DNA of 64,000 bases, from positions 1-64,000 of the IMG/VR virus record IMGVR_UViG_3300031813_000007, one strand, 5' to 3'. Shown here piece after piece: positions 31,978 to 59,636 of the stretch. The notes under the pieces were generated by a model. The model saw only the letters and a list, made by a program, of their open reading frames with translations. It did no database searches and was not told the origin of the DNA. The stretch's first letter is position 1, and each line of letters starts with the position of its first letter. This stretch comes from an uncultured virus (IMG/VR IMGVR_UViG_3300031813_000007). Its lineage: Duplodnaviria; Heunggongvirae; Uroviricota; Caudoviricetes. A program made the translations under genes and the position numbers.

Positions 31978-31990
31978 TTGTTTTTCCTTT

Positions 31991-42287: not shown

Positions 42288-42371
42288 GATAAATAAAAGC
42301 GTAGTTCACGGTGGTGGAACACCTAACTACTCTAATGTCATAGAAGGAAACATCAGCAATGACTATTTATT
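42288..42371 (+). promoter_or_regulatory. conserved structured nuclease-gene leader, copy A
   Basis: GATAAATA..GTAGTT-CAC-GGTG..CACC-T-AACTAC-TCTAA..AAGGA..ATCAGCA-ATG. Confidence 0.85.
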
Positions 42372-43009
42372 CACCTACTGGTCACCGAAAGATATATGAA
42401 CATCATTTCGGTTCCATCCCCAAAGATACAACCGGGCGCTCGTATGAGATACATCACATAGATGGTGATCATTCAAATAATGACCCAACTAACCTAAAAT
42501 GTGTTACCATTCAAGAACATTATGATATCCATTATTCGCAAGGTGATTGGGCCGCATGTCTGTTGATTGCGAACCGAATGAAAGTAACAACGAAGGAAAA
42601 ATCCGAGTTGAGCACTCAGGCAAATACTAAACGAGTAGCAGACGGTTCACATAACTTCTTAGGAAAAAATAACCCATCACACGATAGAGTAGCAAAAGGT
42701 ATACATAACTTTCAAGGTGAATCTAATCCTGCCAAGCAAAAAGTTAAATCCGGCACATATCACATGCAAGAAAAAAATAATCCATCGAAACTTCGCGTAG
42801 ATGATGGTACACACAACTTCTTAGGTGAAAGCAACCCATCACATAAAAGAGTGGCAAACGGCACGCACAACTGGCAACAACCAGTTAATGAAAATCATCC
42901 AACTCAGTTTAAATGGAAGTGTCCACATTGTGATAAAGAGGGCAAAGGCAAAAGTATGTTTAAACGGTGGCATGGTAACAAATGCGGTTCACTGCTCCAA
43001 ATGTCGTAA
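42359..43009 (+). CDS. free-standing HNH homing endonuclease
   Basis: EIHHIDGDHSNNDPTNL; 18-aa repeats; C-terminal CPHC..KRWH..C finger. Confidence 0.9.
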   Translation: MTIYSPTGHRKIYEHHFGSIPKDTTGRSYEIHHIDGDHSNNDPTNLKCVTIQEHYDIHYSQGDWAACLLIANRMKVTTKEKSELSTQANTKRVADGSHNFLGKNNPSHDRVAKGIHNFQGESNPAKQKVKSGTYHMQEKNNPSKLRVDDGTHNFLGESNPSHKRVANGTHNWQQPVNENHPTQFKWKCPHCDKEGKGKSMFKRWHGNKCGSLLQMS

Positions 43010-43969
43010 TATTCGTTTTTTAGCGAGTTCTATTTTAATCTTACTGGTAGTTGCGTTTTGTAAGATTGACAAAAGCGTCGGTAGCTTACCATAGGTGCGA
43101 CTCGCATCATTTACGTCTTTAACATCAGTGTCCCAGTTTGGAATACTGACCTGAAAACCCAACTCAAGTGCTTGGTCACAGATAGTCAGTCCCGTTTTAT
43201 CCTGATCGGGGACTACGATGATAGTTCTGTTTAGATTTCGCAGAATATCAATCTGTGTTTCATGTATGGTGTTAGAAGTTAATGCACACCCACCAATACT
43301 TAAAGCATCAAATATACCTTCTACTACAATACAGCAATGTGAATCTGGCTTTTGGAGGTCATATCCAAACAAATATCCCACCTGCTGATCTTTGATATAT
43401 TTCGGGGTGCGATCATCAAGATAACGGCTTACATGACCAACAATCTTGTTTTTAAAAGTATATGGAATGATGATGCGATTGGAATTGCGACCCTCATCAT
43501 TTGGCGTAACCATATATGGATAATCTTTGTAGTTCATCCCACGCTTTGTTAGATAATCAATGAACACTTGATGGGCAGGATTGTTTTCGTCAATCAGTTC
43601 TGCATTAGGAAGCAAAACTTCCTTAAACTTGATTGCCTTTTTCTTCTTGACAACTTTAGCAAGATCAAGTAAGTCTCGGTGTTTTAAACTTTCCAAGTTC
43701 CATTTAGTGACTTGAGAATCGTCAATACCCAACCAACGCATCATTAGCTTGGTATTACCACTGAGTTGCTTCCCTAACGTGAAACCACATTTAAATCCAC
43801 AGTTGAAGCAATGATATGACCAGTTAACACCTTCACTGAGTTTGACTCCACCTCTCATACGTTTGTCGGGCTTATGGCCACGATGATGGCAACAGAACGC
43901 ATTAACGCTTATCCAGCCACTAACCGTGTGTTTTTTCTTTCCCGGTATTAGAGATAGGACATCAAACAT
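42989..43969 (-). CDS. DNA primase (T4 gp61-like)
   Basis: Zn ribbon (HCFNCG), RIIIP, TOPRIM VEGIFDA, PDQD and KDVND motifs. Confidence 0.9.
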   Translation of the reverse strand: MFDVLSLIPGKKKHTVSGWISVNAFCCHHRGHKPDKRMRGGVKLSEGVNWSYHCFNCGFKCGFTLGKQLSGNTKLMMRWLGIDDSQVTKWNLESLKHRDLLDLAKVVKKKKAIKFKEVLLPNAELIDENNPAHQVFIDYLTKRGMNYKDYPYMVTPNDEGRNSNRIIIPYTFKNKIVGHVSRYLDDRTPKYIKDQQVGYLFGYDLQKPDSHCCIVVEGIFDALSIGGCALTSNTIHETQIDILRNLNRTIIVVPDQDKTGLTICDQALELGFQVSIPNWDTDVKDVNDASRTYGKLPTLLSILQNATTSKIKIELAKKRILRHLEQ

Positions 43970-44016
43970 AAACACATTGTAACATACTTGACGTAAAAAT
44001 CAAGTGTTATGGTAAC

Positions 44017-44805
44017 TTATCGTGATAGAACGTTTGTGACGGCACCAGCATTACTGGTGAACATTACGCGGACATAAGGATGGTATCCTTTAATCACATA
44101 TCCAAAAGTATCAGTTACATTTGAATATACTGTGTTTGTGATTGGATACCAGTCAGCATCTACTTGACATGAACCTTGAATAGTTACGTTTCCAACATAT
44201 TCATACAATGAGGTTTGAATAGTGAGGACTGGATTTTCATTTGTATTGATAACGCTAGTATAATAAATGTTGGCATTTGCGTTGCTGATTGGTTGACCAT
44301 TTGAATATGTCTGATTTGTATTTGGGAATGGTTGACCGGTAGGAATGGTGACAACATTTGATGGAACAAAGTATGGGTAAACAGAGTTAACGATATTCAT
44401 ATCCCCACGTGCTCCAGCATTCTGGTCAACGAACACAGGATAGTTTAAGTCCCCTGATGGGAAAATGAGAGAATAGTATGCCTTCTGTGCATCAATGTCT
44501 ACGAGGTCTGCTGACGTAAGATCAAGTGTTGCAATACCGTTTGCAGGAAGTTGTAGATTAAGAGTGGAGGATAATAAAATCTGACTCCCATCATAGCTAA
44601 TGATGTTACATGTGATTGCCAAACCAGTGATGTCAACAGGCTTCTGTTCTTGATTCAGAAACTGGAACTGAATCTGGTTGTCAACTCCTTTGTTTAATGT
44701 TAGTGGTTTTGCATACTGTGGCATATAGACCCTCGGTGAAAATCCTGTTTGTATGATAACATATTGCCTCTGAGTATATACAAAGACTGAAGTTGCATAA
44801 GACAT
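44017..44805 (-). CDS. virion structural protein
   Basis: Beta-rich, low charge; TAAATA upstream. Confidence 0.6.
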   Translation of the reverse strand: MSYATSVFVYTQRQYVIIQTGFSPRVYMPQYAKPLTLNKGVDNQIQFQFLNQEQKPVDITGLAITCNIISYDGSQILLSSTLNLQLPANGIATLDLTSADLVDIDAQKAYYSLIFPSGDLNYPVFVDQNAGARGDMNIVNSVYPYFVPSNVVTIPTGQPFPNTNQTYSNGQPISNANANIYYTSVINTNENPVLTIQTSLYEYVGNVTIQGSCQVDADWYPITNTVYSNVTDTFGYVIKGYHPYVRVMFTSNAGAVTNVLSR

Positions 44806-44894
44806 ATTATACTGTTACCCTTTTCATCCAGTATTTAGTCTTTGAAATATGAAAATATTAAGTTTTGGATCACCAAACTAAATATACAAAGTAT

Positions 44895-45275
44895 ATGGAT
44901 AGCAACGACTTTTTCAGTAAATTGAGCGAAAATCACCCGTTTATAACGGTCTGTTCTTACGCGGGACAAGACTATGTGGGGATTATTCAAAACAGAGATG
45001 ATATGGTAACGACCATATACGACTATGGATCAATTGTAGAACCAGAGTTGAAGTCAAGATTTTTGGAGTTGGGTGATATATGGTGGTGGGAATCAAATAG
45101 AACGATTCCCATCAATCTTTTTTTGAAGCAAGATTGGAACATCTTCAAACCATATATCAAGACGTTCAATAATAAAAGTTTAGTTATACTTCATGGACCA
45201 GTGGTGAGCATTAATGATTTCTTGAAAAAGAGAACCAAAAGACGCTCAATCACCATGGTCAAACGCCTGCCCTAG
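44895..45275 (+). CDS. hypothetical protein
   Basis: WWWESNR.IPINLFL; start probably MDSNDFF. Confidence 0.7.
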   Translation: MDSNDFFSKLSENHPFITVCSYAGQDYVGIIQNRDDMVTTIYDYGSIVEPELKSRFLELGDIWWWESNRTIPINLFLKQDWNIFKPYIKTFNNKSLVILHGPVVSINDFLKKRTKRRSITMVKRLP

Positions 45276-45762
45276 CTTTCTTCTTTTGATCTTTTGTTCT
45301 GCGTTCTTTGGCCAACTTAAAAGTTAAATCGCCAACACGCTGATCAAAGGTGATTCCGATCAAATGGTCATATTCATGTAAGAATACACGGGCTTCCATT
45401 CCAGTTATTTCTCTTTCAATGCCTTCGCCTGCTATATTTTGATACTGCACAATGCATGATACAGGACGCTTTACTTTCATGAATAAGTCAGGGAATGACA
45501 GACAACCTTCCATTCCAGACACACGATCTTCTGACAGAGAAACAACCTTAGGATTGATGCAAGCAACCATCTTAGTAAAGTTGCCCATGATAAAGATGCG
45601 CTTGCTGATTCCGACTTGCGGTGCAGCGAGACCAACTCCACCATTGTTGATCATGAACTTCATCATTTCCTTGATGAGTTCTTCCGGTGAACCGTCAACC
45701 TCAAAGTCCCATTCTGCTGAGACTTCTGATAGTTCGGGGCTGTTTTCTTTAAGTAGTTCCAT
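45259..45762 (-). CDS. def: peptide deformylase
   Basis: GVGLAAPQ, EGCLS and HEYDH signatures. Confidence 0.95.
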   Translation of the reverse strand: MELLKENSPELSEVSAEWDFEVDGSPEELIKEMMKFMINNGGVGLAAPQVGISKRIFIMGNFTKMVACINPKVVSLSEDRVSGMEGCLSFPDLFMKVKRPVSCIVQYQNIAGEGIEREITGMEARVFLHEYDHLIGITFDQRVGDLTFKLAKERRTKDQKKKARAGV

Positions 45763-45775
45763 TGTTAATCCTTAG

Positions 45776-45967
45776 TCATTTTGCAAGCGTATGCCATAGT
45801 ATATCACCTTCATTTACCCAAACGAGAATGGCATCACCTTGACGGTAAAGGTCTTCACTCAGTCCCTCACGCATTTCATCAAACGTGGTTTTTCCACCGT
45901 TAGGTATTTTTGCATGTTCCCATCTTACGGGAGGAAGCTGAAAATCAGGTGGATACTGAGAACTCAT
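45776..45967 (-). CDS. hypothetical protein
   Basis: ATGA-coupled ORF. Confidence 0.6.
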   Translation of the reverse strand: MSSQYPPDFQLPPVRWEHAKIPNGGKTTFDEMREGLSEDLYRQGDAILVWVNEGDILWHTLAK

Positions 45968-46239
45968 CGTGTCAAAACTTCCATCATCTTTTTCTTGGAT
46001 TCCTGATCCAATCTAGTATGATGTTCGTAACGAGAGACGATGCCCATCCCAAGAAAAAACAAACAACAAATGATTGGGAAAACTATAAATCCAAATTTGC
46101 TTGAAAGGTATATAAGCAGACCACCAAATGTGATCCCTGCCAAAGCGGCTCCAACTCCAATTGCAGCATACCCGGCAACATCTTTAATAGCCTTGCCAAG
46201 AATATACCATTTAATCACTGGTGTGTTCCTTTTCCACAT
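45964..46239 (-). CDS. small membrane protein
   Basis: Two hydrophobic segments. Confidence 0.65.
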   Translation of the reverse strand: MWKRNTPVIKWYILGKAIKDVAGYAAIGVGAALAGITFGGLLIYLSSKFGFIVFPIICCLFFLGMGIVSRYEHHTRLDQESKKKMMEVLTR

Positions 46240-46378
46240 TGTGTTTCAACCATTCTCTGCAAATCATGATAAACTCATCGCGTTGCCAAGCAATCTTTTC
46301 GTGACTCAGTTCAACATAATCATTTGCAATGAAACGAATCAACTGTTCAGCGGTCAGTTGTCTAGTATATTTGCTCAT
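46211..46378 (-). CDS. hypothetical protein (55 aa)
   Basis: Below cut-off: MSKYTRQLTAEQLIRFIAND...; coupled to neighbours. Confidence 0.6.
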   Translation of the reverse strand: MSKYTRQLTAEQLIRFIANDYVELSHEKIAWQRDEFIMICREWLKHNVEKEHTSD

Positions 46379-46707
46379 TCGTCACGTTCCTTCAACTTCT
46401 TCTTTAAAGCTTCGTTTTCTCGCTTGATCTTGGAAATCTTGTATTGAGACCAGCTAAGTTCATCATACTTTTTCATGATAGCTGAAATCTCGTCTACATT
46501 GATTTCGCGCAATTCGTCACCATCTGGAGTGATGAATAAGGTGTTGGCATCCCAATCAAACCCAAGATAAATGTTCTTGACCGGAACGGTGCTGCGAGGA
46601 CCTATTTGACCAACACGGAATACAGGAATAGCCACCTGTACTTCTTCTGGATATCGGTGCCTAGACACGATATTATCAATCACTGTTTTGAGTTCAACTA
46701 GGTTCAC
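46375..46707 (-). CDS. hypothetical protein
   Basis: 110-aa ORF. Confidence 0.7.
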   Translation of the reverse strand: MNLVELKTVIDNIVSRHRYPEEVQVAIPVFRVGQIGPRSTVPVKNIYLGFDWDANTLFITPDGDELREINVDEISAIMKKYDELSWSQYKISKIKRENEALKKKLKERDE

Positions 46708-46712
46708 TTGTT

Positions 46713-47288: not shown

Positions 47289-47289
47289 A

Positions 47290-47577
47290 TTATTCCCATT
47301 TCAATAGAAAGTAAGTATACAACTTTTCGTCTACTACTTCAAACTTATCGGTGATTCTTCCATCAATCATATTCATTTTGATGCCATAGTTCTTTTCTAC
47401 GTATTCTTCAAACTCGTAAGCATCAAACTGACCTTGAAGCTGGTCCAAAGTTGCCATATACTCAACCCGAATCTTCTTTAATGTTCCCCAGTAGTCCCAA
47501 CGCTTCTTTCGAAACTCAATGTCGGGATCATCCGGGTCATAGTCTTCAAGGCCGTTACCTAGTGGAACTTTAACCAT
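47290..47577 (-). CDS. small hypothetical protein (FLLKW tail)
   Basis: Coupled ORF. Confidence 0.7.
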   Translation of the reverse strand: MVKVPLGNGLEDYDPDDPDIEFRKKRWDYWGTLKKIRVEYMATLDQLQGQFDAYEFEEYVEKNYGIKMNMIDGRITDKFEVVDEKLYTYFLLKWE

Positions 47578-48082: not shown

Positions 48083-48083
48083 A

Positions 48084-49562: not shown

Positions 49563-49597
49563 TTTTATATAATATCACACTGATTGGGTTCTGTCAA

Positions 49598-50296
49598 CTA
49601 TTTTGGTTTCTGTTTGCACTTATCACCATGATACTTACTGAAGTTTGGCTTGCCTACCATTTTATCACAGTAAATACAAGTTACTCGGATTGTATTTGGG
49701 TTCGGGATATTACGAGCAATGCGGGTAGCTTTTTGTTTTTGTATACTCTCGTCTGTGCGTTTATCGGTCCCGTTCTGTCTTCTAGTATCCCATCGTTTTG
49801 CGTTGCTTTCAGGCGTGTTTGGATTCATAGTTCCGTTACGTTTTCTAGATTCAAGCTGTTTGACAACCCGTTCTGGTGTTTGGGTATTAATGGTTCCATT
49901 CTTCCGGCGAGATTTTATTAAACTGGCAGTATGTTCCGGTGTCCTATCGTATGATCCGTTTTCTTTTCTAATAGTCACTGCCTTTTTGATTGTCTCTTCC
50001 GTGTGTTCTATGCCTTCGCCTGATTCTGGAATTAGATTAGCCCATGTCTTGTGTCCGAATTCGTCCCGTTCATACACTACATTCCATAACTCACTGTAGT
50101 ATAATCCCCAGTGACGAAGTTCATCATTAGTCTGACATTCCTTGAGTATTTCCGTAGTAACATCATATCCGTGTTTTCTAAGGTGCGGTTTCCATAGGTC
50201 ACCTGACCCTTTGTATTTGTAGGGGTCTTGCGAGGTTTTTCCAAGGTATTTAAACCCTGTTTTGTTATGGGTCTTCTTATACAAATAAATAGTCAT
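49598..50296 (-). CDS. free-standing GIY-YIG-like (Seg-type) endonuclease
   Basis: IYLYKKTH..GFKYLGKT..YKGSG..ANL; basic repeats; C-terminal CIYC..YHGDKC finger. Confidence 0.85.
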   Translation of the reverse strand: MTIYLYKKTHNKTGFKYLGKTSQDPYKYKGSGDLWKPHLRKHGYDVTTEILKECQTNDELRHWGLYYSELWNVVYERDEFGHKTWANLIPESGEGIEHTEETIKKAVTIRKENGSYDRTPEHTASLIKSRRKNGTINTQTPERVVKQLESRKRNGTMNPNTPESNAKRWDTRRQNGTDKRTDESIQKQKATRIARNIPNPNTIRVTCIYCDKMVGKPNFSKYHGDKCKQKPK

Positions 50297-50372
50297 AGCT
50301 GATGCTCCTTCTAAGCGTTAGTGTAGTTGGGAATTGGCGTTCCGTGAGCTACATCAGATATGACTATTTATC
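50285..50372 (-). promoter_or_regulatory. conserved structured nuclease-gene leader, copy D
   Basis: Same core as copies A-C, bounded by a 19/20-bp inverted repeat. Confidence 0.85.
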
Positions 50373-50414
50373 CCAAACCACATCTTTATTCTATTAAAGG
50401 GGTCTCTTTAGCCA

Positions 50415-50696
50415 TTAGATTGCCTGTGGGTTTTGATAAATCATATTCTTGCCATCATAAGAAATAACAAAGACAGACACATCCATATCACTATTGTACC
50501 ATTTATTCAAGCATTCATTGTATGCTTTCTTAATCGCAGCATCAAGATCACAATTTGGAATCGTTAAATCTTCCAGCTTGAATGGCTGTTTGAGGATTTC
50601 TGTACCCCCTGCTGTACGTCGAAGAACGTGAAAGTAGAAGTTTGGCTTATACCCTACTGGTTCTACATTGATACGAGCGACTTTGATATCACTCAT
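50415..50696 (-). CDS. hypothetical protein
   Basis: Coupled ORF. Confidence 0.65.
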   Translation of the reverse strand: MSDIKVARINVEPVGYKPNFYFHVLRRTAGGTEILKQPFKLEDLTIPNCDLDAAIKKAYNECLNKWYNSDMDVSVFVISYDGKNMIYQNPQAI

Positions 50697-50992
50697 CGCT
50701 TAAGCGCCTCATAGGTGATGATATGTGCTAATGCCTGCCCCAAATCTTCATCCTTCGGAATAACATGCAGGGAAGTGGATGAACGATCATTCGCAACATC
50801 ATAGTAAGTTACTTCCACAACTGTTCCACCATTAGCATTGTATGTACGAAATGAAGTACTTGGTGAGTTTAAATCGCGTGATATGGAATTCCTGCGAGAA
50901 TAGTTAACATCCGGCATCAAAACTGGTTCATTTTGCACCTTTTCCCATGCTTTGCGAGATTGCTTTAGAAACCAATTGTCAAACCACTTCAC
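50693..50992 (-). CDS. hypothetical protein
   Basis: GTG start; ANGG.VVE motif. Confidence 0.7.
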   Translation of the reverse strand: MKWFDNWFLKQSRKAWEKVQNEPVLMPDVNYSRRNSISRDLNSPSTSFRTYNANGGTVVEVTYYDVANDRSSTSLHVIPKDEDLGQALAHIITYEALKR

Positions 50993-51117
50993 TTCTTTTT
51001 CCCTCTCTTAGTTGGAATAGAGATTTCAATATTTGGATACAAAGTGCGAATAACACCCATAATATCAGAATCCTGATTACGCTTCTGAAACTCTTTGATT
51101 GACGATTCCTTAATCAT
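50989..51117 (-). CDS. hypothetical protein (42 aa)
   Basis: Below cut-off; AAGGAGA SD; GTGA coupling to the next gene. Confidence 0.55.
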   Translation of the reverse strand: MIKESSIKEFQKRNQDSDIMGVIRTLYPNIEISIPTKRGKKK

Positions 51118-51126
51118 ATTTTCTCC

Positions 51127-51630
51127 TTAAAAAGCCAACGAATAATCTACTACTTCACAGTTACGGCTGATTTCTTTGACGAAATAAACGCATCTTGGTT
51201 TTTCTCCGTCATCAATAGGCACACATAAAAACTGCCCATTACGAAGTCTTGGTGCGAACCAAGTTACATCTGGATATATGTCTAATATTTCAATAGGTAA
51301 GAATGAAGGCGAGAACGATGTTAATGGATTAAACTCAAATGCATGAAACCCTCTATCGTTTAAGCTAGAAAGGGGCAGAGTCTCCAAATCGCCATGTTCC
51401 TGTTCTCCGATTAGCACTTGCCAATCAACAGGCATCTTGATCGTTTTATCAGCAATCTTTAGTACGAGTGCTGGAGAGTTAAATGATTCCAGAAAGATCA
51501 ATGGTATGAAATGATAATCAACGTTAGATGGTGTTGAGTTGTCAAGTATTGCGAAACGCATATCATCTATTTCTTCTGGAAGCTGCTCAAGATTGAAGAA
51601 TGTGTTTTCTTCTAATGTTAATATTCTCAT
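51127..51630 (-). CDS. hypothetical protein
   Basis: 167-aa ORF with own consensus promoter. Confidence 0.8.
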   Translation of the reverse strand: MRILTLEENTFFNLEQLPEEIDDMRFAILDNSTPSNVDYHFIPLIFLESFNSPALVLKIADKTIKMPVDWQVLIGEQEHGDLETLPLSSLNDRGFHAFEFNPLTSFSPSFLPIEILDIYPDVTWFAPRLRNGQFLCVPIDDGEKPRCVYFVKEISRNCEVVDYSLAF

Positions 51631-51669
51631 GATGTTATTGTATCAAATATTGTGTTGTATGTCAACATG

Positions 51670-52506
51670 TTAGTAGTCCAACTTCTTTATTGTAAATGGA
51701 TACTGTGCTTCCTTATAAAAAGCCTTACGTTGCGTTAGGTGTCTCTTTGCAAACTTGCAGGTACTTGTTAGGTCCCAAATCTGCACAAAATCCTTGTCTT
51801 CCGCTTTTCTTACACCACGCCCAATGCTCTGAATAACACGAACAAACGACTTACCAGGTTCAATAAGTACCAAGTTAAAGATACGAGGAATATTGATACC
51901 GACAGCCGCAACGCCATACGTGGCGACAATAATCTTGTCATCACTCGTGGCCACTTCATCGTATTCTTCCTTTCTTTCTGTTAGTTTAGTGTTTCCGTTG
52001 ACAAACACCGCGTTGTCCAATCGGCTCACTAACTCTTTTCCTGCATTCACACGGTCTACTAGGACCAACGTGTTGCCAGTTTTATTGATTTCTTTGATTA
52101 GAGAAGCCATCTTATCTAATCGCTTTTCATCTTCTAAGAGATGTTTGAGTTCAGCCTGATAGTTGGAAAACTCCTTGTTATCTTTCATCTGAATGATGTT
52201 TACGTGGCAGTTAGCCAGAACTCCCTTATCCTGTAGTTCTTTTGCGCCAAGCTTTCCGACAACTGGACCAAGAGATACTAACAGTGATACTTGATCCATC
52301 AAATCCTTTGGAATCGTCCCTGTCAATCCCCAACGAATAGGTATGTCAGAAAACACTCCTGTTAGCATAGTCTTAAGTACATCGGCCTTTGCCATGTGGC
52401 AGTTGGAAACTACTGCTCCATCAACTATGTAATTATGATCATTTTCAATATGGAGATTGAACACTTCGTCGGGTTTATCAATTTCAGTTTTTCTTATTAG
52501 CTTCAT
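51670..52506 (-). CDS. uvsW: split-intein C fragment (35 aa) fused to C-terminal half of UvsW-like helicase
   Basis: MKLIRK..VFNLHIENDHNYIVDGAVVSN|CHMAK, then GLTGT, AVGINIP and QSIGRGVR helicase motifs. Confidence 0.92.
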   Translation of the reverse strand: MKLIRKTEIDKPDEVFNLHIENDHNYIVDGAVVSNCHMAKADVLKTMLTGVFSDIPIRWGLTGTIPKDLMDQVSLLVSLGPVVGKLGAKELQDKGVLANCHVNIIQMKDNKEFSNYQAELKHLLEDEKRLDKMASLIKEINKTGNTLVLVDRVNAGKELVSRLDNAVFVNGNTKLTERKEEYDEVATSDDKIIVATYGVAAVGINIPRIFNLVLIEPGKSFVRVIQSIGRGVRKAEDKDFVQIWDLTSTCKFAKRHLTQRKAFYKEAQYPFTIKKLDY

Positions 52507-53398
52507 ATAACTTCCTTATTTTTGTTGCGGTTTTTTCATCGAATCCGGAGAGGTCAGTGGGACAGCCATTAGTCAATAGCCATTCCTGTGTCACGATAAT
52601 GACTCTAAAACCATTTTGGTTAGCCCACTCGTTGAGTGCAACTATTTTTGCGTCAAATATCTCACCTTTACATAACTCCGCCGGTTTCACTTCCGCTACC
52701 TGTTTGGTTTCATAGTCAACAAAATCAGCTATGTATATTTTTCGATTACCGTTGATAGTGTATTCCAATCTCAACGTTTCATATTCTGCATCCGGATACA
52801 TATACTGAAACAACGCTTCCCAGCTTGATCTATATTTCTTTCCGTTAAATTCTGCTGCCCAATGCGTATTTCGATTGTTAGAATTTGGGGTAAAGTCTCC
52901 GGCTAATATTTTAGCTTTCATCACATCTGACCGGTGTTGTTTATCTTGGTCAGACATTTTTACACCATGCATTCCGTTTGCTTCCCCGCTATTTGCTCGG
53001 GAGGCGATGCGGCTATCGGTGTGTTTAGTCAACCCCTTTGCCCATGAAGTTTGGAGTCCGGTCTTTCCTTTATTCCATGGCACTCCTGTATTTAAATTGC
53101 GGCTACTAAGTTCAGGATGTAGTTTATGGACTGCTTCACCACCAATTGCGGCAAGCTTGGCCTTTATTTCCCGATCGGTTATCAATCCAGCGAGAAGCAA
53201 ATCCATGTTCTTCACCCAAAGATCAGTCTTGATATTCATCACTCTCTTTTTGAACTTGCCAAACTCGGGCTGTATTAATATCTCGCCAGTTGATAATTCT
53301 AATGTTGCTTTTCCAAAATCAACTACCCTTACCCGTTGGTCATATGTTTCTAGTCGTCCATTTAATCGGACTTTCCATTGTTCATATGTAATTTTCAT
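52484..53398 (-). CDS. free-standing PD-(D/E)XK-type endonuclease inside the fractured gene
   Basis: YRSSWE..EYE..YIADF..EVKP; PWNKG and GEANGMHG basic modules; start refined to ATG after AGGAG. Confidence 0.8.
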   Translation of the reverse strand: MKITYEQWKVRLNGRLETYDQRVRVVDFGKATLELSTGEILIQPEFGKFKKRVMNIKTDLWVKNMDLLLAGLITDREIKAKLAAIGGEAVHKLHPELSSRNLNTGVPWNKGKTGLQTSWAKGLTKHTDSRIASRANSGEANGMHGVKMSDQDKQHRSDVMKAKILAGDFTPNSNNRNTHWAAEFNGKKYRSSWEALFQYMYPDAEYETLRLEYTINGNRKIYIADFVDYETKQVAEVKPAELCKGEIFDAKIVALNEWANQNGFRVIIVTQEWLLTNGCPTDLSGFDEKTATKIRKLYEANKKN

Positions 53399-53425
53399 AA
53401 ATACTCCTGCCTTAGCCATATGTAT

Positions 53426-54442
53426 TTATGTTTTGTTTACGATTTCGTGATTTTCAGTAAGTTCGTCTGCCCGACACCATCCTAGGTTTGTTAGAAACTT
53501 ATGATTTCCGGTAACCCTAATTACACTTCCATTATCAAATTCCATTTCATACATTTTTTCAGTGGAAGATATTGTAAGATTCCGGTGTTGTTTTACTACT
53601 GTATCTTCCTTAAAGATTCCGGACTGTTCGCAATAATTGATTATTTTATCTCCAACTTTAACGTCCTTGATTGGTAGATGCCCATTCGGGGTTAGCACTC
53701 TGGCTTCTCCATCAAAACATTCGTCAACCATCACACATACAACGTCTTCAAAAAAGAATTCGTCCATTTCTGGATCAGCATCTTCATCCTTAACCGATTT
53801 GAATAGGTTATTTAGAGATTGCCATGTGCAAATGGTATGTGTCTTACCGTATTCTTTACGATCACCAAAGTAGACACCCACATCTAGTCCAAGATTGATG
53901 TAGTCTGCCTCTGTTTGCACCACCAGAGACTTGTTAGGGACGATTACAAGCGATCTACCATATCTTTCTATACATTGTGATAGTCCAGCAGTGATAAGCG
54001 TCTTACCGGCTCCTGTGGCAACTTCTTGCAATGCCTGTGGATTAGATAAAAAGGTGTTAATAATCTCAACCTGATAGTCTCGCAATAAGATTGGTTTTCC
54101 TTCTGCTGGATGACCCTTTGGCCATAGTGTTTCAGCGAAGGTATCTTCTTTGATCAAATCAAATTCTAGGTCTTGACGGCTGCGATGATCTTCCAACTCA
54201 ATATCATAATCATGATCTATCAAATATGGAATGATCTGATCTAACAGGTTGAGATATGTGCTTCCGGCTAGAGAGAAGTAACTTACTTTTCCGTTCCACC
54301 TACCAAGTCTTACGGCAGGTAAAAATCTTGCACCTGGTTTTTCGTACTCAAACTTTTTTGTTAATGCTCTTCGGACATCTAGTTCAAGTCCTTCTATTTT
54401 TACATTAACTTCATCTTTGATTATTATTTTTGCTTCTCTCAT
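53426..54442 (-). CDS. uvsW: N-terminal half of UvsW-like helicase fused to split-intein N fragment (97 aa)
   Basis: LRDYQ, ATGAGKT, VMVDE|CFDGEARV...VTGNHKF (intein blocks A and B). Confidence 0.92.
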   Translation of the reverse strand: MREAKIIIKDEVNVKIEGLELDVRRALTKKFEYEKPGARFLPAVRLGRWNGKVSYFSLAGSTYLNLLDQIIPYLIDHDYDIELEDHRSRQDLEFDLIKEDTFAETLWPKGHPAEGKPILLRDYQVEIINTFLSNPQALQEVATGAGKTLITAGLSQCIERYGRSLVIVPNKSLVVQTEADYINLGLDVGVYFGDRKEYGKTHTICTWQSLNNLFKSVKDEDADPEMDEFFFEDVVCVMVDECFDGEARVLTPNGHLPIKDVKVGDKIINYCEQSGIFKEDTVVKQHRNLTISSTEKMYEMEFDNGSVIRVTGNHKFLTNLGWCRADELTENHEIVNKT

Positions 54443-55425
54443 TTTACCTCTATTGGACGTGAATCTTTGACGATGATCATCTTATCAATGCGCGTAACAG
54501 AAGGAGGATTATCATAAACGGATACGCACATTTGCTGTTCATCATCACTTGTTGCTGTTCGGAAACCGTTGGAAATAGTTATATCGGCTTTAGTCATTGA
54601 TTCCCTGATTTGTTTACCAAGCATACCATGTGCAAGGCCCCTGCCAAACACTATTTTGCTGCAACCAAGCCCCGTGATCATAGATGCCAGTGTTTCTGCC
54701 TCAGCAGCCTCAACGTATGTCGTTTGCTCTGCAGCAAACTTTAGAAATGGATCATGGTCAACCAACACGGGATCAACCCTGATTCCAAGCTGACTAAGTT
54801 TATACAGCGTCATTGGCTCAAGATTTAGCTCCATGTCACCTATCACATCTGCAAGTACAGATGACATTGCGGCAATCATTAGTTTGCCATTGACCGATGT
54901 AAGTGTCGGATTCCAGACCTGAGCATCATACTGCTTCAAGTCTTCCAGAATCTGGTTAATGTTTTCACAGAACTGGACCGTTGAAAAATGTTTGTACAGT
55001 TCGGTTACAGCAATTTTGAGTGCAGTTGTTCTAAACGGAGACGTATAAAGTTTACGTTCCTTGTTCCACTGAAAAGTGTTGCTGGGAATTTCCCTAAATT
55101 TGGTAATGAAAGTCTTGTTAAACGGAACACGAATAGTGATGTCATCATCTACGATGCTCACTACTGCTCCGGTATATTCTGGTGTGCTTTGAACAACCAT
55201 AGACTTCCACGGAAGAGCAATGACTGTCTTCCCATCAATACCCTGCTTGGTCATCTGCTTATTATATTTAGTTACCAGACGATCAAACAAATCTGCCTGA
55301 TTGGATGTAACTCTATTATCATTGTGAATCATCGTCTGCAAGTTTGCAAGAAACTTGTAGTCATATTGGCTTAGACTAATCTTCCCCTGCAGGAAAAAGT
55401 AGAGCAGTTGTTCTTTCGTTTCCAT
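54439..55425 (-). CDS. hypothetical protein
   Basis: 328-aa ORF, ATGA-coupled to uvsW-N. Confidence 0.75.
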   Translation of the reverse strand: METKEQLLYFFLQGKISLSQYDYKFLANLQTMIHNDNRVTSNQADLFDRLVTKYNKQMTKQGIDGKTVIALPWKSMVVQSTPEYTGAVVSIVDDDITIRVPFNKTFITKFREIPSNTFQWNKERKLYTSPFRTTALKIAVTELYKHFSTVQFCENINQILEDLKQYDAQVWNPTLTSVNGKLMIAAMSSVLADVIGDMELNLEPMTLYKLSQLGIRVDPVLVDHDPFLKFAAEQTTYVEAAEAETLASMITGLGCSKIVFGRGLAHGMLGKQIRESMTKADITISNGFRTATSDDEQQMCVSVYDNPPSVTRIDKMIIVKDSRPIEVK

Positions 55426-55460
55426 TGTATCACTATATCATAATCTGTAGCAAAAGCAAG

Positions 55461-55488
55461 AAAAAAGGGGAAGACCTAAGCCTCCCCC
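55461..55488 (-). terminator. intrinsic terminator
   Basis: Minus strand GGGGAGGC-TTAG-GTCTTCCCC-TTTTTT. Confidence 0.8.
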
Positions 55489-55524
55489 TGAGTTTACCAC
55501 CGAAATGGTCTGGTGGAGAGAAAT

Positions 55525-55698
55525 TTAGAGTTTTTGGCGAATACGTACTGTCTCAAAGAGTGCAATAAGGGCGATGCAAAACGCTATGTGATCCATGCTT
55601 CCCCATTGACCACTGAAAATCCTGATGACTGCTTCCAGTACAAAAACTTGCCATATGGTCCAGAGCCACGCAATAACAAACTTAATCTCGTCTTTCAT
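55525..55698 (-). CDS. small membrane protein (57 aa)
   Basis: Below cut-off: MKDEIKFVIAWLWTIWQVFVL...; two hydrophobic stretches. Confidence 0.55.
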   Translation of the reverse strand: MKDEIKFVIAWLWTIWQVFVLEAVIRIFSGQWGSMDHIAFCIALIALFETVRIRQKL

Positions 55699-55709
55699 TT
55701 CATTTCCCC

Positions 55710-56741
55710 TTAGCGCCGACGCATGACAGTGGTTTCTGCCAGTGCGCGCCAGTTCTTGGGCGACACCTTCACGAGATCAGCGATCTTGAGAGCAGTACGA
55801 ATAGACAGTTCACGCAACTTCGTGGAGTTCTCTTGCATGAAGTCAAGAACTTCCTGCCCTTCGTTTTCCATAAAGTTGTAGTCTCCAAACAGGCCACCAT
55901 CACTATCACGGTGAACCTGCTTGATACGCAGCATCTTATCGCGTTCCGAGTCAATCGTCAGGTCAATAAAGTGACAACGCGATTCGAGTGCTTCAAGGTG
56001 ATCTTGAAGCTTCTTGGAGCGAACATTTTCAAACTTGAGGTTCGTAATGAAGATAGCCGAACCATTGAAGTTGAAGCTATTGGGAATACCTTCATCACGC
56101 AGCAGGCGCGAATCCGAATTCCAGCAAATACGCCGCCGCTTGCCGCTATCCAGTGCTGCCTTGAGGATGTTCAGTGACAGTTCATCAGCGAAGACGCTAT
56201 CACAGTCATCAAACACCAGAACATTCTTCTTATCGCTATACTTGTAAAGCTGTGCATACAGACCCAGAGCGGTCATTGCACCCTTGACAACGTTGTGACG
56301 CAGCTTGTTTCCGGCAATCTGATCAAACATTGCAGACTTTTCAAGCTGCTGTTCAACCCCGAACGACTTGCCAACGCCCGGAGGACCCGAAACGATCATC
56401 GCACGAACATCGCCACGAATACACGCAGCGGCCATATCATCAAGAATTTGAAAACGAGAAGAGATGCGATCCATCGCTTCTTCGTCAGTCTCAGTCACCA
56501 CAGGCTTTTTGCCTGCCTTCGCGACCGGAGTATCATCAACAGGACCGTCAATGATTTCATAATGAGAAGTACTATCCACTTTAATCCTTACTTTGTTACA
56601 ATCCACGGGAAACTTGTTGTCATTCAGAACGGTAATGAAAGAACCATGAACACCGTCTTGAATACCTTTGAGCATCACGAACTCCCGATTGATAACCGGC
56701 TTGCCGCGAAACTCACCATACTTTACGATAATGTTGGTCAT
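55710..56741 (-). CDS. AAA+-type ATPase
   Basis: GPPGVGKS, VFDDCD, IFITN and ALESR motifs. Confidence 0.85.
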   Translation of the reverse strand: MTNIIVKYGEFRGKPVINREFVMLKGIQDGVHGSFITVLNDNKFPVDCNKVRIKVDSTSHYEIIDGPVDDTPVAKAGKKPVVTETDEEAMDRISSRFQILDDMAAACIRGDVRAMIVSGPPGVGKSFGVEQQLEKSAMFDQIAGNKLRHNVVKGAMTALGLYAQLYKYSDKKNVLVFDDCDSVFADELSLNILKAALDSGKRRRICWNSDSRLLRDEGIPNSFNFNGSAIFITNLKFENVRSKKLQDHLEALESRCHFIDLTIDSERDKMLRIKQVHRDSDGGLFGDYNFMENEGQEVLDFMQENSTKLRELSIRTALKIADLVKVSPKNWRALAETTVMRRR

Positions 56742-56773
56742 AACAATCTCCTGTGTGTTTGGTGAGGCAATCT

Positions 56774-57286
56774 CTACACACAGGAGATTATGTTGTCAAG
56801 CAGAAAAACAGTAATCTTTGAAAAACCTTCCTCTTCGGTTGGAAGGGTCAAAGACTTAACCATAGTCCCCAGTACATGCTGAGGAATAGTCTTGCCTTTA
56901 CGAGAGTTTAGCCTGCGTTCCCACTCATCCTGTTCAGGAGTCGGAAACACCACTGCTTCAAACGTGTATCCATGATTCTTAAAGAAATCAATAAACCTCT
57001 TACGAGACTTTACCGACAGATTAGTGCGATCAATGATCACGCTTTCACCATTTTCTGCACACTCAGTAGCATAGTCCCACATGACCTTTTCAGCAAACCC
57101 AACGAGTTCCTTGAATCCCTGATCATACGTGTAGCCATACTGGTGTGCTACTTCCTCAATGATCTTGTCAGTGGAAAGCACCACATCATGGCCACGCTTG
57201 AACACGTTTTCCACCCTACGCTGAGCAGTCCACGTGGACTTCCCAGAGCCAGGCACACCGACAAGAATAGTACAGGTCTTAGTCAT
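56774..57286 (-). CDS. polynucleotide kinase (Pnk kinase-domain-like)
   Basis: GVPGSGKSTW, STD and IIDRTN motifs. Confidence 0.8.
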   Translation of the reverse strand: MTKTCTILVGVPGSGKSTWTAQRRVENVFKRGHDVVLSTDKIIEEVAHQYGYTYDQGFKELVGFAEKVMWDYATECAENGESVIIDRTNLSVKSRKRFIDFFKNHGYTFEAVVFPTPEQDEWERRLNSRKGKTIPQHVLGTMVKSLTLPTEEEGFSKITVFLLDNIISCV

Positions 57287-57446
57287 CTTCTTTTTCCTTC
57301 AATAGATTGCGAGTTCGTTCCACAATACAGTTGCCTTTGTCTTCCAAAAAATGTGCCTGACAATAGCCGTGATGATCATGATGACATGGTTCATCGTGAA
57401 TGTCAAGCCATTCTTGTAGCAGTTTGGTTAATTCGTTAGTCATCAT
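57279..57446 (-). CDS. small His/Cys-rich protein (55 aa)
   Basis: Below cut-off: ...DEPCHHDHHGYCQAH...C. Confidence 0.6.
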   Translation of the reverse strand: MMTNELTKLLQEWLDIHDEPCHHDHHGYCQAHFLEDKGNCIVERTRNLLKEKEDD

Positions 57447-57499
57447 AACTACCCTTCATTGTTTTTATATACAAAAATAATTCATATGTCAAGAAGAGA

Positions 57500-57579
57500 G
57501 ATAAATAGTCGTGAGTCGCGGAAGCCCAATTCCCACTCACTCTAATGCTATGAAGGAGCAATCAGCATGACTACTTATT
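57500..57579 (+). promoter_or_regulatory. conserved structured nuclease-gene leader, copy B
   Basis: GATAAATA..GTGAGT-CGC-GGAA..TTCC-C-ACTCAC-TCTAA..AAGGAGCAATCAGC-ATG. Confidence 0.85.
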
Positions 57580-58265
57580 CAAAAAACAGAACACCCAGCA
57601 AAATTTATCGTAAAATTTACGAAGATTACTATGGTCCAATCCCAATAGATGCTGATGGAAAATCCTATGAAATTCATCATATAGACGGCAATCATAAAAA
57701 TAACGACCCATCTAATTTAATCGCAGTATCTGCACAAGAACATTATGATATTCATTATTCCCAAGGCGATTGGGGAGCTTGCTGGTTAATGGCAGAAAGA
57801 CTGAAGTTGTCATCAAAAGAAATATCAGAATTGGCACGATTGGCGGCGAATAGAAGAGTAGAAAATGGAACTCACAACTTCCAAGATTCGGAGTCCCAGA
57901 GAGAAAAAGCACTGAGAATGGTCCGTGAAGGGACAAATGTTTTTGTTGGCGGCGAAATTCAACGCCAACACAATAGACGCAGAGTAAATGATGGTTCACA
58001 CCATTTACTCAAACGTCCCGATGGAACAAGTCACTCATCAGATAGAGTTAATGCAGGAACCCATAATTTTCAAGACAGCAAGTCTCAGCAGGAAAGAGCA
58101 TTGAAAAGGGTTAAAAATAAAACTCACAATTTTCAAAAAAGAGAAGGATATGAACATCCTTCAACGTCCGAAAAATGGTATTGCCATACTTGCAAAAAAG
58201 AAGGAAAGAATGCGGGAAGTAGAGGTAGATACCACAAAGGACATGAGGTTACTATAATTAAATAG
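57567..58265 (+). CDS. free-standing HNH homing endonuclease (paralogue of 42359..43009)
   Basis: EIHHIDGNHKNNDPSNL; 21-aa repeats; C-terminal CHTC finger. Confidence 0.9.
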   Translation: MTTYSKNRTPSKIYRKIYEDYYGPIPIDADGKSYEIHHIDGNHKNNDPSNLIAVSAQEHYDIHYSQGDWGACWLMAERLKLSSKEISELARLAANRRVENGTHNFQDSESQREKALRMVREGTNVFVGGEIQRQHNRRRVNDGSHHLLKRPDGTSHSSDRVNAGTHNFQDSKSQQERALKRVKNKTHNFQKREGYEHPSTSEKWYCHTCKKEGKNAGSRGRYHKGHEVTIIK

Positions 58266-59493
58266 CATTAAACTTTACGTTGTGGAACCATTTGTCTCGC
58301 AGTGCTTCATACTTAGTATTGCGAGACAAATTGTTAATAATAACACTATATATTGCATCTTTAACTTGCTCTTTAGTGCCTTCTTTATCCCACAAAGAGA
58401 ACATAATAGGGCGCGTGAAGCTATCAAAGTTGGTTGCGTGATTAATTGCAAATTCTTTACGATCACCGATATACTTATCAGATTTATAAAATTGAACATC
58501 AGACCAAATTTTATTAACCCTCTGATTGATTGCTTTGTTAAAGTCATTTTCAAACACAGTAATTGCATCGCGATCCTCTACGGGTAGATGTGCCTTAACA
58601 TCATCGATGGTGTTTTCCAATATCATTTGCACTACATTGCGATCTTGCAGGATTGCTTCCTTCGCCTTATGAATCTGGAGATACCAATGGCACTTCAACT
58701 TCAACATATGCCCATCATCAAAACGAACCACGAATCCTTCAAGGTCTTCCAGATCACGAACGTATTCAAGGAAAGCCTTCATATCAGTCTGCGGCTCGAA
58801 TGCACGAACTACAGGAAGATATCCGCCCTTAAATGTAAATGCATTAACATTACCGACCATAGCATCATGTGTAAGATATCGGCCCGTGTCCATCTGGCGA
58901 ATAGCAGTCAGAACAAGCTGATCTTCTTTATAATCAAGAACGATACGTTGCTTACGCGAACACCATTCAAAGATAGGCGTTAGGCCAGCCAGAAGCATTT
59001 CAACTGCAAACTCTTCATAAAGAGGATTGTTCTTGACGAACTCCTCAACAGGCTTTGCCACATCGGTAGCACCCATCTTCGTGCCCCAGATCATCTGACC
59101 ATCCACAATGAACGGTGCAATCATGGAACCATCCAGCTTCTCAAGGATCACATGAGGACGCGACAGATCAATGACATGATCCTGAGTCTCTTCACGCTCG
59201 TTCACGTTGAAGAACTTATGGAACGGACGACGAATGATGTCACCAGTCTTCGAGTCGAAGATGATACCACGACATTCACGGCGAATACGAGCATGAAGAT
59301 TTTCTATTTCATAATGATCATGATTACCACGCAAATCATTAGAAGCAATCACATCAGGAAACGTATCAGCCATCATCACATTGTAAGAAATACAAGTATA
59401 AGGACCTTTATCCGCAATAATGAACTCGTCCCTGCCTTCGATAGCAGGGAGCACATCAGAAATATTTTTAATAATCGGGAAGGTATAATTCAT
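58258..59493 (-). CDS. rnlA: RNA ligase 1 (T4 gp63-like)
   Basis: ECRGIIF, KFFN, EKLDGS, EGFVV and KLKC.WY motifs. Confidence 0.92.
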   Translation of the reverse strand: MNYTFPIIKNISDVLPAIEGRDEFIIADKGPYTCISYNVMMADTFPDVIASNDLRGNHDHYEIENLHARIRRECRGIIFDSKTGDIIRRPFHKFFNVNEREETQDHVIDLSRPHVILEKLDGSMIAPFIVDGQMIWGTKMGATDVAKPVEEFVKNNPLYEEFAVEMLLAGLTPIFEWCSRKQRIVLDYKEDQLVLTAIRQMDTGRYLTHDAMVGNVNAFTFKGGYLPVVRAFEPQTDMKAFLEYVRDLEDLEGFVVRFDDGHMLKLKCHWYLQIHKAKEAILQDRNVVQMILENTIDDVKAHLPVEDRDAITVFENDFNKAINQRVNKIWSDVQFYKSDKYIGDRKEFAINHATNFDSFTRPIMFSLWDKEGTKEQVKDAIYSVIINNLSRNTKYEALRDKWFHNVKFNAI

Positions 59494-59554
59494 GATGTAT
59501 CTCCCATTTCACTGTCACTGTTATAGCACATATAATGATGATGTCAAGCAGAAA

Positions 59555-59636
59555 GATAAATAAAGTTGTAGTTCGCGGAATGGGGATTCCCAACTACTCT
59601 AACGCTTAAGAGGAGCAATCAGCATGAATATTTATC
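59555..59636 (+). promoter_or_regulatory. conserved structured nuclease-gene leader, copy C
   Basis: GATAAATA..GTAGTT-CGC-GGAAT..ATTCC-C-AACTAC-TCTAA..AGGAGCAATCAGC-ATG. Confidence 0.85.

What the first reader, a model, noticed from the sequence alone, without database searches (positions are those of the whole stretch)
42288..59636. One covarying structured leader shared by four nuclease genes of two unrelated folds
Seen: the ~80 nt upstream of 42359 (HNH), 57567 (HNH), 59624 (GIY-YIG-like) and 50296 (GIY-YIG-like, minus strand) align as GATAAATA-N-P1-CRC-P2(loop)-Y-P1'-WCTAAY-P3(SD in loop)-ATCAGC-ATG. Changes are compensatory: P1 GTAGTT/AACTAC versus GTGAGT/ACTCAC; P2 GGAA/TTCC versus GGTG/CACC; P3 GCT/AGC versus TGT/ACA. 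The P2 loop differs in every copy (GTGGAA, GCCCAA, GGGG, CGCCAA), and all four proteins begin M-T/N-I/T-Y. Known: T4 homing-endonuclease genes use simple hairpins over late promoters. Inference: this is a larger multi-stem RNA (or DNA) module that travels with swappable nuclease cargo. It could be a riboregulator, an autogenous operator, an element end or a nuclease-associated ncRNA. I do not recognise it as a named RNA family.
Basis: partly seen in the sequence, partly recalled or inferred. Interest (0 to 1): 0.9.

Follow-up and report, generated by a model that had tools for sequence, protein, structure and literature searches.

The report
Antisense control cassette on phage nucleases
Four selfish DNA-cutting genes in this uncultured jumbo phage start with the same short control cassette, found on hundreds of such genes in related phages, whose RNA fold is conserved on the strand opposite the gene, so it most likely makes a small antisense RNA that keeps the nuclease low, though no transcript has been seen.

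Summary
The repeat is real: four copies in the window, six in G000, 259 distinct copies parsed from viral contigs, strong covariation, no Rfam match. G·U pairs occur only on the strand opposite the nuclease (18 G·U versus 0 A·C of 464 unconstrained cells). A second late-promoter box (TAAATA) faces the first from inside the opening codons (108 of 116 copies in a search that did not impose it). It falls in all three reading frames, which explains the shared M-T-I-Y start. Best reading (0.6): a roughly 60-70 nt cis-antisense RNA with two hairpins and an anti-Shine-Dalgarno loop damps nuclease translation, like IS10 RNA-OUT, FinP or P22 sar. Cargo is swappable: HNH, GIY-YIG, a TnsA-like nuclease and a TnpB clade. 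No conserved partner end was found, so it is not an element end. Expression is untested, and two invariant bulged Gs are unexplained. New variant of a known kind.

The parts
42290..42295 (+). Sense late-promoter box TAAATA, copy a, 5 nt before the cassette
   Evidence: the motif lies within 60 nt upstream of 33 of 125 ORFs in G000 against 3.5 expected
42301..42357 (-). Two-hairpin core, copy a; predicted antisense RNA with 5' G at or near 42357, then a U-rich tail over the sense promoter
   Evidence: (E 7e-13)
42364..42369 (-). Antisense late-promoter box TAAATA inside codons 2-4 of the HNH gene (6 nt spacer)
42359..43009 (+). HNH_3 homing endonuclease (216 aa), inverted between primase and DnaB genes that are adjacent in PA5oct
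50365..50370 (-). Sense late-promoter box, copy d (12 nt spacer, part of a 20-nt inverted repeat with 50285-50304)
50298..50352 (+). Two-hairpin core, copy d; predicted antisense RNA
   Evidence: (E 1.4e-13)
50286..50291 (+). Antisense late-promoter box TAAATA inside the first codons of the 50296 gene
49598..50296 (-). GIY-YIG homing endonuclease (232 aa), same orientation as its neighbours
   Evidence: (phrog_314, E 7e-6)
57502..57507 (+). Sense late-promoter box, copy b (3 nt spacer)
57511..57566 (-). Two-hairpin core, copy b; predicted antisense RNA
   Evidence: (E 2.8e-15)
57572..57577 (-). Antisense promoter box, variant TAAGTA (hence MTTY)
   Evidence: TAAGTA upstream of 6 of 125 ORFs against 1.4 expected
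57567..58265 (+). HNH_3 homing endonuclease (232 aa); N-terminal domain 58-60% identical to the 'intron-like DNA endonuclease' of T-even phages; inverted between a kinase-like and an RNA ligase gene
59557..59562 (+). Sense late-promoter box, copy c (5 nt spacer)
59568..59623 (-). Two-hairpin core, copy c; predicted antisense RNA
   Evidence: (E 1e-16)
59629..59634 (-). Antisense late-promoter box TAAATA (5 nt spacer)
59624..60352 (+). SegE-like GIY-YIG homing endonuclease (242 aa), inverted after the RNA ligase gene
   Evidence: (38-44% to SegE GIY-YIG Pfam members L005, L094, L106)

Best explanation
The roughly 80-bp unit is a portable expression-and-restraint cassette for free-standing nuclease genes of T4-like phages. 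Shown: two TAAATA boxes face each other, each about 5 nt outside a 52-64 nt core, and the core's two hairpins are conserved on the strand opposite the nuclease gene. Inferred: the outer box is a gp55-type late promoter that lets the nuclease gene be expressed in either orientation. The inner box, hidden in codons 1-4, drives a roughly 60-70 nt antisense RNA that starts at G. Hairpin 1 shows the anti-Shine-Dalgarno CC(U) in its loop; hairpin 2 (6 bp, bulged G, one R-Y pair, bulged G, 3-4 bp, variable loop) is followed by a U-rich run that may end the transcript. This RNA is complementary to the whole 5' leader and would block ribosome loading or trigger decay, probably helped by interference between the two polymerases. 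Late nuclease output stays low enough for homing without damaging phage DNA.
For: Strand: in a search that imposed neither hairpin 1 nor the inner promoter, all 116 distinct hits had a fully paired 6-bp stem, with 18 G·U and 0 A·C among 464 free cells. In the 259 parsed copies this stem has 30 G·U and 0 A·C of 1554 cells. In a search not imposing hairpin 1, 117 of 118 hits were real and kept G-Y-U-G ... U-A-R-N, a G·U pair on the antisense strand, with C-G/U-A covariation next to it. Hairpin 1 is more stable on the antisense strand in 257 of 259 copies. Inner promoter: a TAAATA/TAAGTA/TATATA box lies 3-7 nt before the core in 108 of 116 unbiased hits; TAAATA at exactly 5 nt in 92 of 107 promoter-free hits; three reading frames (131, 21, 22 of 174); kept at 5 nt when the start codon moves inside hairpin 1 (L386, L338); present in 54 of 54 co-oriented copies, where no host transcript supplies that strand (some searches behind this set imposed the box); absent from the first codons of 10 of 11 NUMOD3 genes lacking the cassette. 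TAAATA is this phage's late box, and gp55-like sigma genes are in 4 of 4 carrier genomes tested (weak, E 1e-5 to 1e-6, in three). CC lies in the hairpin-1 loop in 241 of 259 copies. Precedents read as passages: RNA-OUT and art200 (PMC4513863), FinP and sar (PMC5415839; PMC12197685).
Against: No transcript was seen; promoter activity and RNA ends are predictions. The +1 position rests on T4 numbering (TATAAATA at -13 to -6), which I recall; it agrees with the -12, -9, -8 positions in PMC7892883. A purely base-pairing antisense RNA does not need invariant bulged Gs (38 of 38 in a search not imposing them). Hairpin 2 is only weakly strand-biased in energy (158 of 259), is bulged, and was not called a terminator. 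About two thirds of classifiable copies are inverted (100 inverted, 54 co-oriented, 23 mixed, 82 not classifiable), so host read-through RNA could also carry the fold. The bases beside the two boxes match slightly more than shuffled (394 against 370 +/- 12 of 996; 28 of 1000 shuffles). 8 of 116 unbiased copies lack a recognisable inner box. In the TnpB clade the box-to-core spacing varies (5, 8, 8 and 11 nt, read). Both promoters being late leaves the timing logic unclear.
Confidence: 0.6

Rival explanations
1. Insulator and interference without RNA-RNA pairing. The fold acts in cis on RNA of antisense polarity (host read-through or the short inner transcript) as a terminator or processing signal, and the inner promoter damps the outer one only by polymerase collision or occlusion.
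For: 100 of 154 clearly oriented copies are inverted, while 10 of 11 cassette-less NUMOD3 genes look co-oriented by longest open frame. A U-rich tail follows hairpin 2. An outward sigma70-like site follows the cassette in 33 of 100 inverted copies against 5.1 in shuffles and 4 of 54 co-oriented copies, as if the next gene needed re-initiation. The two boxes are only about 65 nt apart.
Against: It does not explain why hairpin 1 keeps a G·U pair and an exposed anti-SD loop, or why co-oriented copies keep the same fold (G·U in 53 of 54). The terminator scan did not call it.
Confidence: 0.15
2. The antisense-strand RNA has a function of its own beyond pairing: a site for a host or phage protein, a ligand-binding or catalytic fold, a trans-acting silencer of other homing endonucleases, or a nuclease-bound scaffold.
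For: Invariant features amid covarying stems: 5' G (253 of 259), G·U, a single-A linker (249 of 259) and two bulged Gs around a G-C/G·U/A-U pair. Non-cognate duplexes reach a median 0.51 of the cognate energy against 0.20 for shuffles. 8-13 copies coexist in 4 of the 5 genomes searched. The cassette stays intact before truncated cargo, such as the 30-aa remnant at G000 99955.
Against: No Rfam ribozyme or riboswitch match. No pseudoknot partner: the P4 loop occurs in both orientations in 10 loop pairs. The cargo has its own DNA-binding modules (NUMOD3, I-TevI DNA-binding) and four unrelated folds. No ProQ/FinO gene, and no Hfq over the cut-off, in 4 carrier genomes; a host protein is not excluded.
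Confidence: 0.12
3. One reading: a structured 5' leader on the nuclease mRNA (riboregulator or autogenous operator), or a large version of the T4 promoter-in-hairpin device in which the TAAATA box pairs with the TATTTA in the first codons.
For: Watson-Crick pairs also form on the sense strand (89% of cells on A2). The SD core is partly paired in the predicted mRNA (mean unpaired probability 0.42). Copy d can close a 19-of-20 stem. Such hairpins are known for T4-type endonuclease genes (PMC2988022, PMC2677866).
Against: Every tolerated wobble in the 6-bp stem is an A·C mismatch on the sense strand. Hairpin 1 averages about -6 kcal/mol antisense against about -2.7 sense. The flanks of the two boxes barely covary. 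The late transcript would start downstream of the outer box and contain the whole core, unlike the T4 device. Seven copies lack the outer box and keep the inner one.
Confidence: 0.08
4. A DNA hairpin or element end used for mobilisation or cargo exchange (IS200/IS605-like end, attC-like site).
For: G·T is also better tolerated than A·C in single-stranded DNA (own knowledge). Extrahelical Gs recall attC (recalled). Cargo is shuffled, and a TnpB clade carries the cassette.
Against: No conserved sequence after the cargo stop codon (commonest 8-mer in 6 of 167). The cassette contains the SD and sits 5 nt from promoter boxes on both sides. I did not search carrier genomes for a recombinase or TnpA.
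Confidence: 0.05

Closest known systems
IS10 RNA-OUT / RNA-IN and IS200 art200 (PMC4513863, passages read)
   Same: Small cis-antisense RNA over the 5' leader of a mobile element's enzyme, promoter at or inside the gene start, loop-initiated pairing, block of 30S binding; RNA-OUT acts in trans on all copies.
   Different: Here the promoters are phage late boxes, the cargo is homing endonucleases of several folds or TnpB, one cassette serves unrelated genes, and there is no Rfam sequence match. Function is untested.
FinP of F-like plasmids and P22 sar (PMC5415839; PMC12197685; passages read)
   Same: Short antisense RNAs complementary to a ribosome-binding site; FinP has two stem-loops, sar is 68/69 nt.
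   Different: No sequence or model match; no FinO/ProQ gene in 4 carrier genomes; targets are unrelated.
CfrI of cyanophage S-PM2 (known to me only through review passages in PMC2984593 and PMC12197685; the original paper is not held)
   Same: An expressed antisense RNA touching a free-standing homing endonuclease gene in a T4-like phage.
   Different: About 225 nt, spans psbA and F-CphI at one locus, function unknown; not described as a repeated two-hairpin cassette. I did not compare sequences.
Late-promoter hairpins of T-even and Aeh1 homing endonuclease genes and of 'fractured gene' endonucleases (PMC2988022, PMC2677866; passages read)
   Same: Late TATAAATA-type promoter and RNA structure at the start of a homing endonuclease gene, restraining expression.
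   Different: There the hairpin is on the sense strand and the late transcript escapes it. Here the late transcript contains the whole core, the fold is antisense, and a second box faces the first. The window's own fractured-gene nuclease (53419) has the classical short form.
Automated candidate RNAs DNAVirus_8080, 8282, 8377 and similar (PMC10690425, supplement tables read)
   Same: IMG/VR candidates of 79-105 nt listed within 25 nt upstream of HNH and/or GIY-YIG genes.
   Different: Their alignments could not be read, so identity with this cassette is neither shown nor excluded. In the passages read, none is discussed.

Membership tests
Any Rfam 15 family (ribozymes, riboswitches, FinP, RNA-OUT, HEARO and others) | Covariance-model hit | tested here: not met
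   Window at gathering threshold: only freshwater-2 elsewhere. Copy b at E<=10: none. Nine loci at E<=5: 6 weak hits, none on the cassette.
cis-antisense RNA regulators (RNA-OUT, art200, FinP, sar type) | [quoted passage not shown] | tested here: met
   As a sequence motif only: 108 of 116 unbiased copies; three reading frames.
cis-antisense RNA regulators (RNA-OUT, art200, FinP, sar type) | Conserved stem-loops on the antisense strand with a loop complementary to the ribosome-binding region | tested here: met
cis-antisense RNA regulators (RNA-OUT, art200, FinP, sar type) | A discrete antisense transcript exists | not testable with these tools
   Needs RNA data from an infected host; see Tried and rejected.
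cis-antisense RNA regulators (RNA-OUT, art200, FinP, sar type) | Defined 3' end (intrinsic terminator) | tested here: inconclusive
   Hairpin 2 plus a U-rich tail, but not called by the terminator scan of copies b and c.
cis-antisense RNA regulators (RNA-OUT, art200, FinP, sar type) | Represses the target by pairing | not testable with these tools
   Needs reporter and toeprint assays.
T4-type promoter-in-hairpin leader of homing endonuclease genes | Sense-strand hairpin over the RBS whose 5' arm is missing from late transcripts | tested here: not met
   The core lies wholly downstream of the outer box; flanks of the two boxes barely covary; wobbles favour the other strand.
T4-type promoter-in-hairpin leader of homing endonuclease genes | TATAAATA-type late promoter and gp55-like sigma factor | tested here: met
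   (gp55-like hits in G001-G004; no gp55 search was run in the fragment G000).
IS200/IS605-like or other element ends | A conserved partner end on the other side of the cargo | tested here: not met
   Commonest 8-mer within 90 nt after the stop codon is in 6 of 167; a purely structural end would be missed.
OMEGA / HEARO-type nuclease-associated guide RNAs | One cognate RNA-binding nuclease family tied to the RNA | tested here: not met
   Cassette uncoupled from cargo class; cargo of four folds.
CfrI | About 225 nt RNA linking psbA and F-CphI | not tested
   Original paper not held; sequence not compared. Context and length differ on the review's description.

The most novel reading that the evidence does not exclude
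The antisense RNA is a structured RNA class in its own right. Its invariant 5' G, G·U pair and two bulged Gs bind a dedicated factor or form a tertiary fold, and because leaders are alike across copies it silences non-cognate homing endonucleases in trans. That would give copy-number control across the 8-13 copies of a genome and a form of immunity against homing by a co-infecting phage, with the cassette spreading as a selfish module that adopts HNH, GIY-YIG, TnsA-like and TnpB nucleases.
Probability: 0.15. Interest if true: 0.85.

Novelty: new variant of a known kind. Interest (0 to 1): 0.62.

Why it matters
How phages carry many self-damaging homing endonucleases is usually explained by late promoters, sense hairpins and autorepression (PMC2988022). 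A shared antisense cassette on hundreds of nuclease genes of four folds would add a layer of control not found in the searches run here, and could explain how such genes sit inverted between essential genes. It is directly testable in E. coli with T4 gp55. The model also marks free-standing nuclease genes that Pfam misses.

Tried and rejected
RNA evidence: no RNA holder listed for window 50400-60300, so no reads were laid. Cultured phages: model R1 found no copy in PA5oct, Phosso, Atu_ph07, XaC1 (0 of 4) or T4; blastn of copy b against 50,697 phage records gave 4 chance-level hits. So no cultured carrier was found. Known ribozymes and riboswitches (hammerhead, pistol, twister, HDV-like, fluoride, T-box), tRNA, group II intron domain 5 and attC were considered from memory and dropped: no Rfam hit, no tRNA. 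A closing stem between the two boxes was tested and not supported. Phage ProQ and Hfq genes: none over the cut-off. A protein reason for M-T-I-Y was rejected. Rows dropped: 28 of 219 hits (fewer than 8 of 10 pairs; they look like chance), 1 of 118, 78 of 116 hits lacked either a fully paired stem or the outer box and were left out of the 38 (at least 4 of these, L617, L621, L661, L717, are real copies without the outer box). G·U counts on alignment A2 (144) include 83 cells imposed by my pattern and are not used as strand evidence. Orientation calls come from a crude ORF heuristic. Literature: nine searches listed no paper describing this cassette. The supplements of PMC5737381 and the alignment files of PMC10690425 could not be read and may bear on novelty.


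Full report
Setting. The window is the first 64 kb of G000, a 117-kb viral fragment, 32% complete. Its DnaB is closest to PA5oct-like jumbo phages (48% identity), and it carries T4-type tail sheath, UvsX, UvsY, UvsW and RNA ligase genes. TAAATA lies within 60 nt upstream of 33 of 125 ORFs against 3.5 expected, and TAAGTA upstream of 6 against 1.4, so this is the late-promoter box. gp55-like sigma genes were found in 4 of 4 carrier genomes tested, strongly in G004 (E 7e-26) and weakly in G001-G003.

Observation. The four segments are as described. Two more copies lie at G000 71329 and 99955; the second heads a 30-aa GIY-YIG remnant. Two window genes are HNH_3. The other two have no Pfam hit but align with SegE-type members, and the profile matches the I-TevI catalytic domain. 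Rfam gives nothing on the cassette.

Family. From the first four scans plus G000 I parsed 259 distinct copies with a 52-64 nt core. On 83 sequences, 14 of 18 pairs show two-sided changes, 98% of cells pair, 0 of 500 shuffles reach this, and slid partners pair 31-48%. Large genomes hold 13, 13, 8, 8 and 1 matches (G001-G005; the weakest, in G004, has E 0.017). None was found in four cultured jumbo relatives or T4, and 6 of 80 prokaryote-genome loci were true, all in MAG contigs.

Strand. A G·U pair on one strand is an A·C mismatch on the other. In the search that imposed neither hairpin 1 nor the inner box, 116 of 116 distinct hits had a fully paired 6-bp stem on the antisense strand, with 18 G·U and 0 A·C in 464 free cells. 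In the 259 set the same stem has 30 G·U and 0 A·C of 1554 cells (the parser allowed one mismatch). In the search that did not impose hairpin 1, 117 of 118 hits were real and nearly all kept G-Y-U-G ... U-A-R-N, a G·U pair beside a covarying C-G/U-A pair. Hairpin 1 is more stable antisense in 257 of 259 copies, hairpin 2 in only 158. Both Gs were kept in 38 of 38 copies from a search that did not ask for them.

Second promoter. Each window gene has the box on the opposite strand in its first codons. Among 107 copies found by promoter-free patterns, 101 have TAAATA 4-7 nt before the core (92 at 5 nt), and 5 of the other 6 have TAAGTA. In the fully unbiased set, 108 of 116 have TAAATA (87), TAAGTA (14) or TATATA (7) at 3-7 nt. 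The motif falls in all three frames of the cargo (131, 21, 22 of 174; MTIY, MIFI, MYL starts), so DNA and not peptide is conserved. It stays at 5 nt when the start codon moves into hairpin 1 (L386, L338). Only 6 of 125 G000 ORFs have such a motif at their start, and 5 of these carry the cassette. The outer box is present in 185 of 191 copies, 140 at 5 nt. With T4 numbering (recalled; consistent with passages of PMC7892883) both transcripts would start at the edges of the core, nearly always on G. Could the two boxes simply pair, as in the T4-type hairpin (PMC2988022, PMC2677866)? Their flanks match only slightly above shuffles (164 of 249 against 158 +/- 3 at the first base), and seven copies keep the inner box without the outer. 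The small excess is noted; copy d alone has a 19-of-20 inverted repeat.

Cargo. Of 128 proteins scanned at E<=0.01, 20 hit HNH_3, 15 HNH, 11 GIY-YIG or SegE, one DUF7487/TnsA-like, and many only NUMOD3 or nothing. 167 cargo proteins fall into 15 N-terminal clusters, six with at least 5 members, with C-terminal parts shared across clusters. The most similar cassette has the same cargo class in 32 of 167 cases against 28.9 by chance (the cassette is short, so this test is coarse). Four TnpB genes also carry it: L621, L723 and L724 by model (3 of 41 loci searched) and L725 by eye; Pfam confirms OrfB_IS605 and Cas12f1-like domains. Nothing conserved follows the stop codons. The cassette is optional: 11 of 17 NUMOD3 genes examined in three genomes lack it, and 10 of these look co-oriented with their neighbours, as do two further endonuclease genes in G000 without a model hit. 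Carriers are 100 inverted, 54 co-oriented, 23 mixed and 82 unclassified. An outward sigma70-like site follows 33 of 100 inverted copies against 5.1 in shuffles.

Mechanism. Shown: two facing boxes, an antisense fold, an anti-SD loop (CC in 241 of 259) and cargo exchange. Inferred: late transcription from both boxes; a 60-70 nt RNA ending in the U-rich run; pairing to the leader and loss of ribosome access, as for RNA-OUT, art200, FinP and sar (passages). I put this at 0.6. Rivals are cis insulation and interference (0.15), an RNA with its own partner or trans action (0.12), a sense leader (0.08) and a DNA end (0.05). The invariant bulged Gs are the main unexplained feature. Non-cognate duplexes reach about half the cognate energy, so cross-talk is possible but not shown.

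Novelty. The nine searches named in Tried and rejected listed no description. CfrI is a precedent for an antisense RNA at a homing endonuclease gene in a T4-like phage (review passages), but differs in length and context. Automated candidates upstream of HNH and GIY-YIG genes exist in PMC10690425, and one may be this element; their alignments were unreadable. Passages of PMC7318152 and bioRxiv 10.64898/2026.09.22.753630 held nothing on it. Eight earlier AI notes of this scan reach the same reading in other genomes. My reading was noted before I saw them, and they are not independent support. Verdict: real, widespread, a new variant of cis-antisense control, awaiting any RNA evidence; interest 0.62.

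Noticed in passing
window 51670-54442 (-): Fractured UvsW helicase: N-half ending in an intein N-part (53426-54442), a free-standing TnsA/Vsr-like endonuclease (52484-53419), and a C-half starting with an intein C-part ending in SN-C (51670-52506). It fits the arrangement of PMC2677866; the word UvsW does not occur in that paper's text.
   Followed up: partly
window 53397-53435: The fractured-gene nuclease has the classical short hairpin: late box ATAAATA pairing with a TATTTAT over its start codon, with the SD between. It could be an ancestor or a reduced relative of the cassette.
   Followed up: partly
window 31975-32050 (-): Rfam freshwater-2 RNA (61 bits) right after a TATAAATA box, upstream of a 470-aa unknown gene.
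   Followed up: no
window 50285-50304 and 50352-50371: 20-nt inverted repeat (19 of 20) around copy d, probably a template-switch duplication; it could close the sense leader over the start codon.
   Followed up: partly
cassette hairpin-2 loop across the family: Ten loop sequences occur together with their reverse complement (for example 23 against 12 copies of one pair), suggesting in-place inversions and a loop whose sequence does not matter.
   Followed up: partly
L621, L723, L724, L725: A small clade of viral TnpB (IS605 OrfB) genes of about 404 aa heads with the same cassette, the start codon inside hairpin 1.
   Followed up: partly
window 6301-10785 and 32683-34767 (-): Large proteins with many internal repeats, probably tail fibre or adhesin-like; the second has no PHROG hit, the first was not scanned.
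   Followed up: no
window 42632-42877 and 57854-58136: 54-nt repeats in the C-terminal halves of both HNH genes (families D14, D19), probably repeated DNA-binding modules.
   Followed up: no
L539:10440-12992 and L539:9689-10459 (G000 91440-93992, 90689-91459, -): An 851-aa DNA methyltransferase-like ORF with a long insert between matched parts, overlapping an HNH gene that has no cassette.
   Followed up: no
L540 (G000 100026-116093): Cluster of sugar and modification enzymes: carbamoyltransferase, three radical SAM proteins, UDP-glucose dehydrogenase, nucleotide-sugar epimerase.
   Followed up: no
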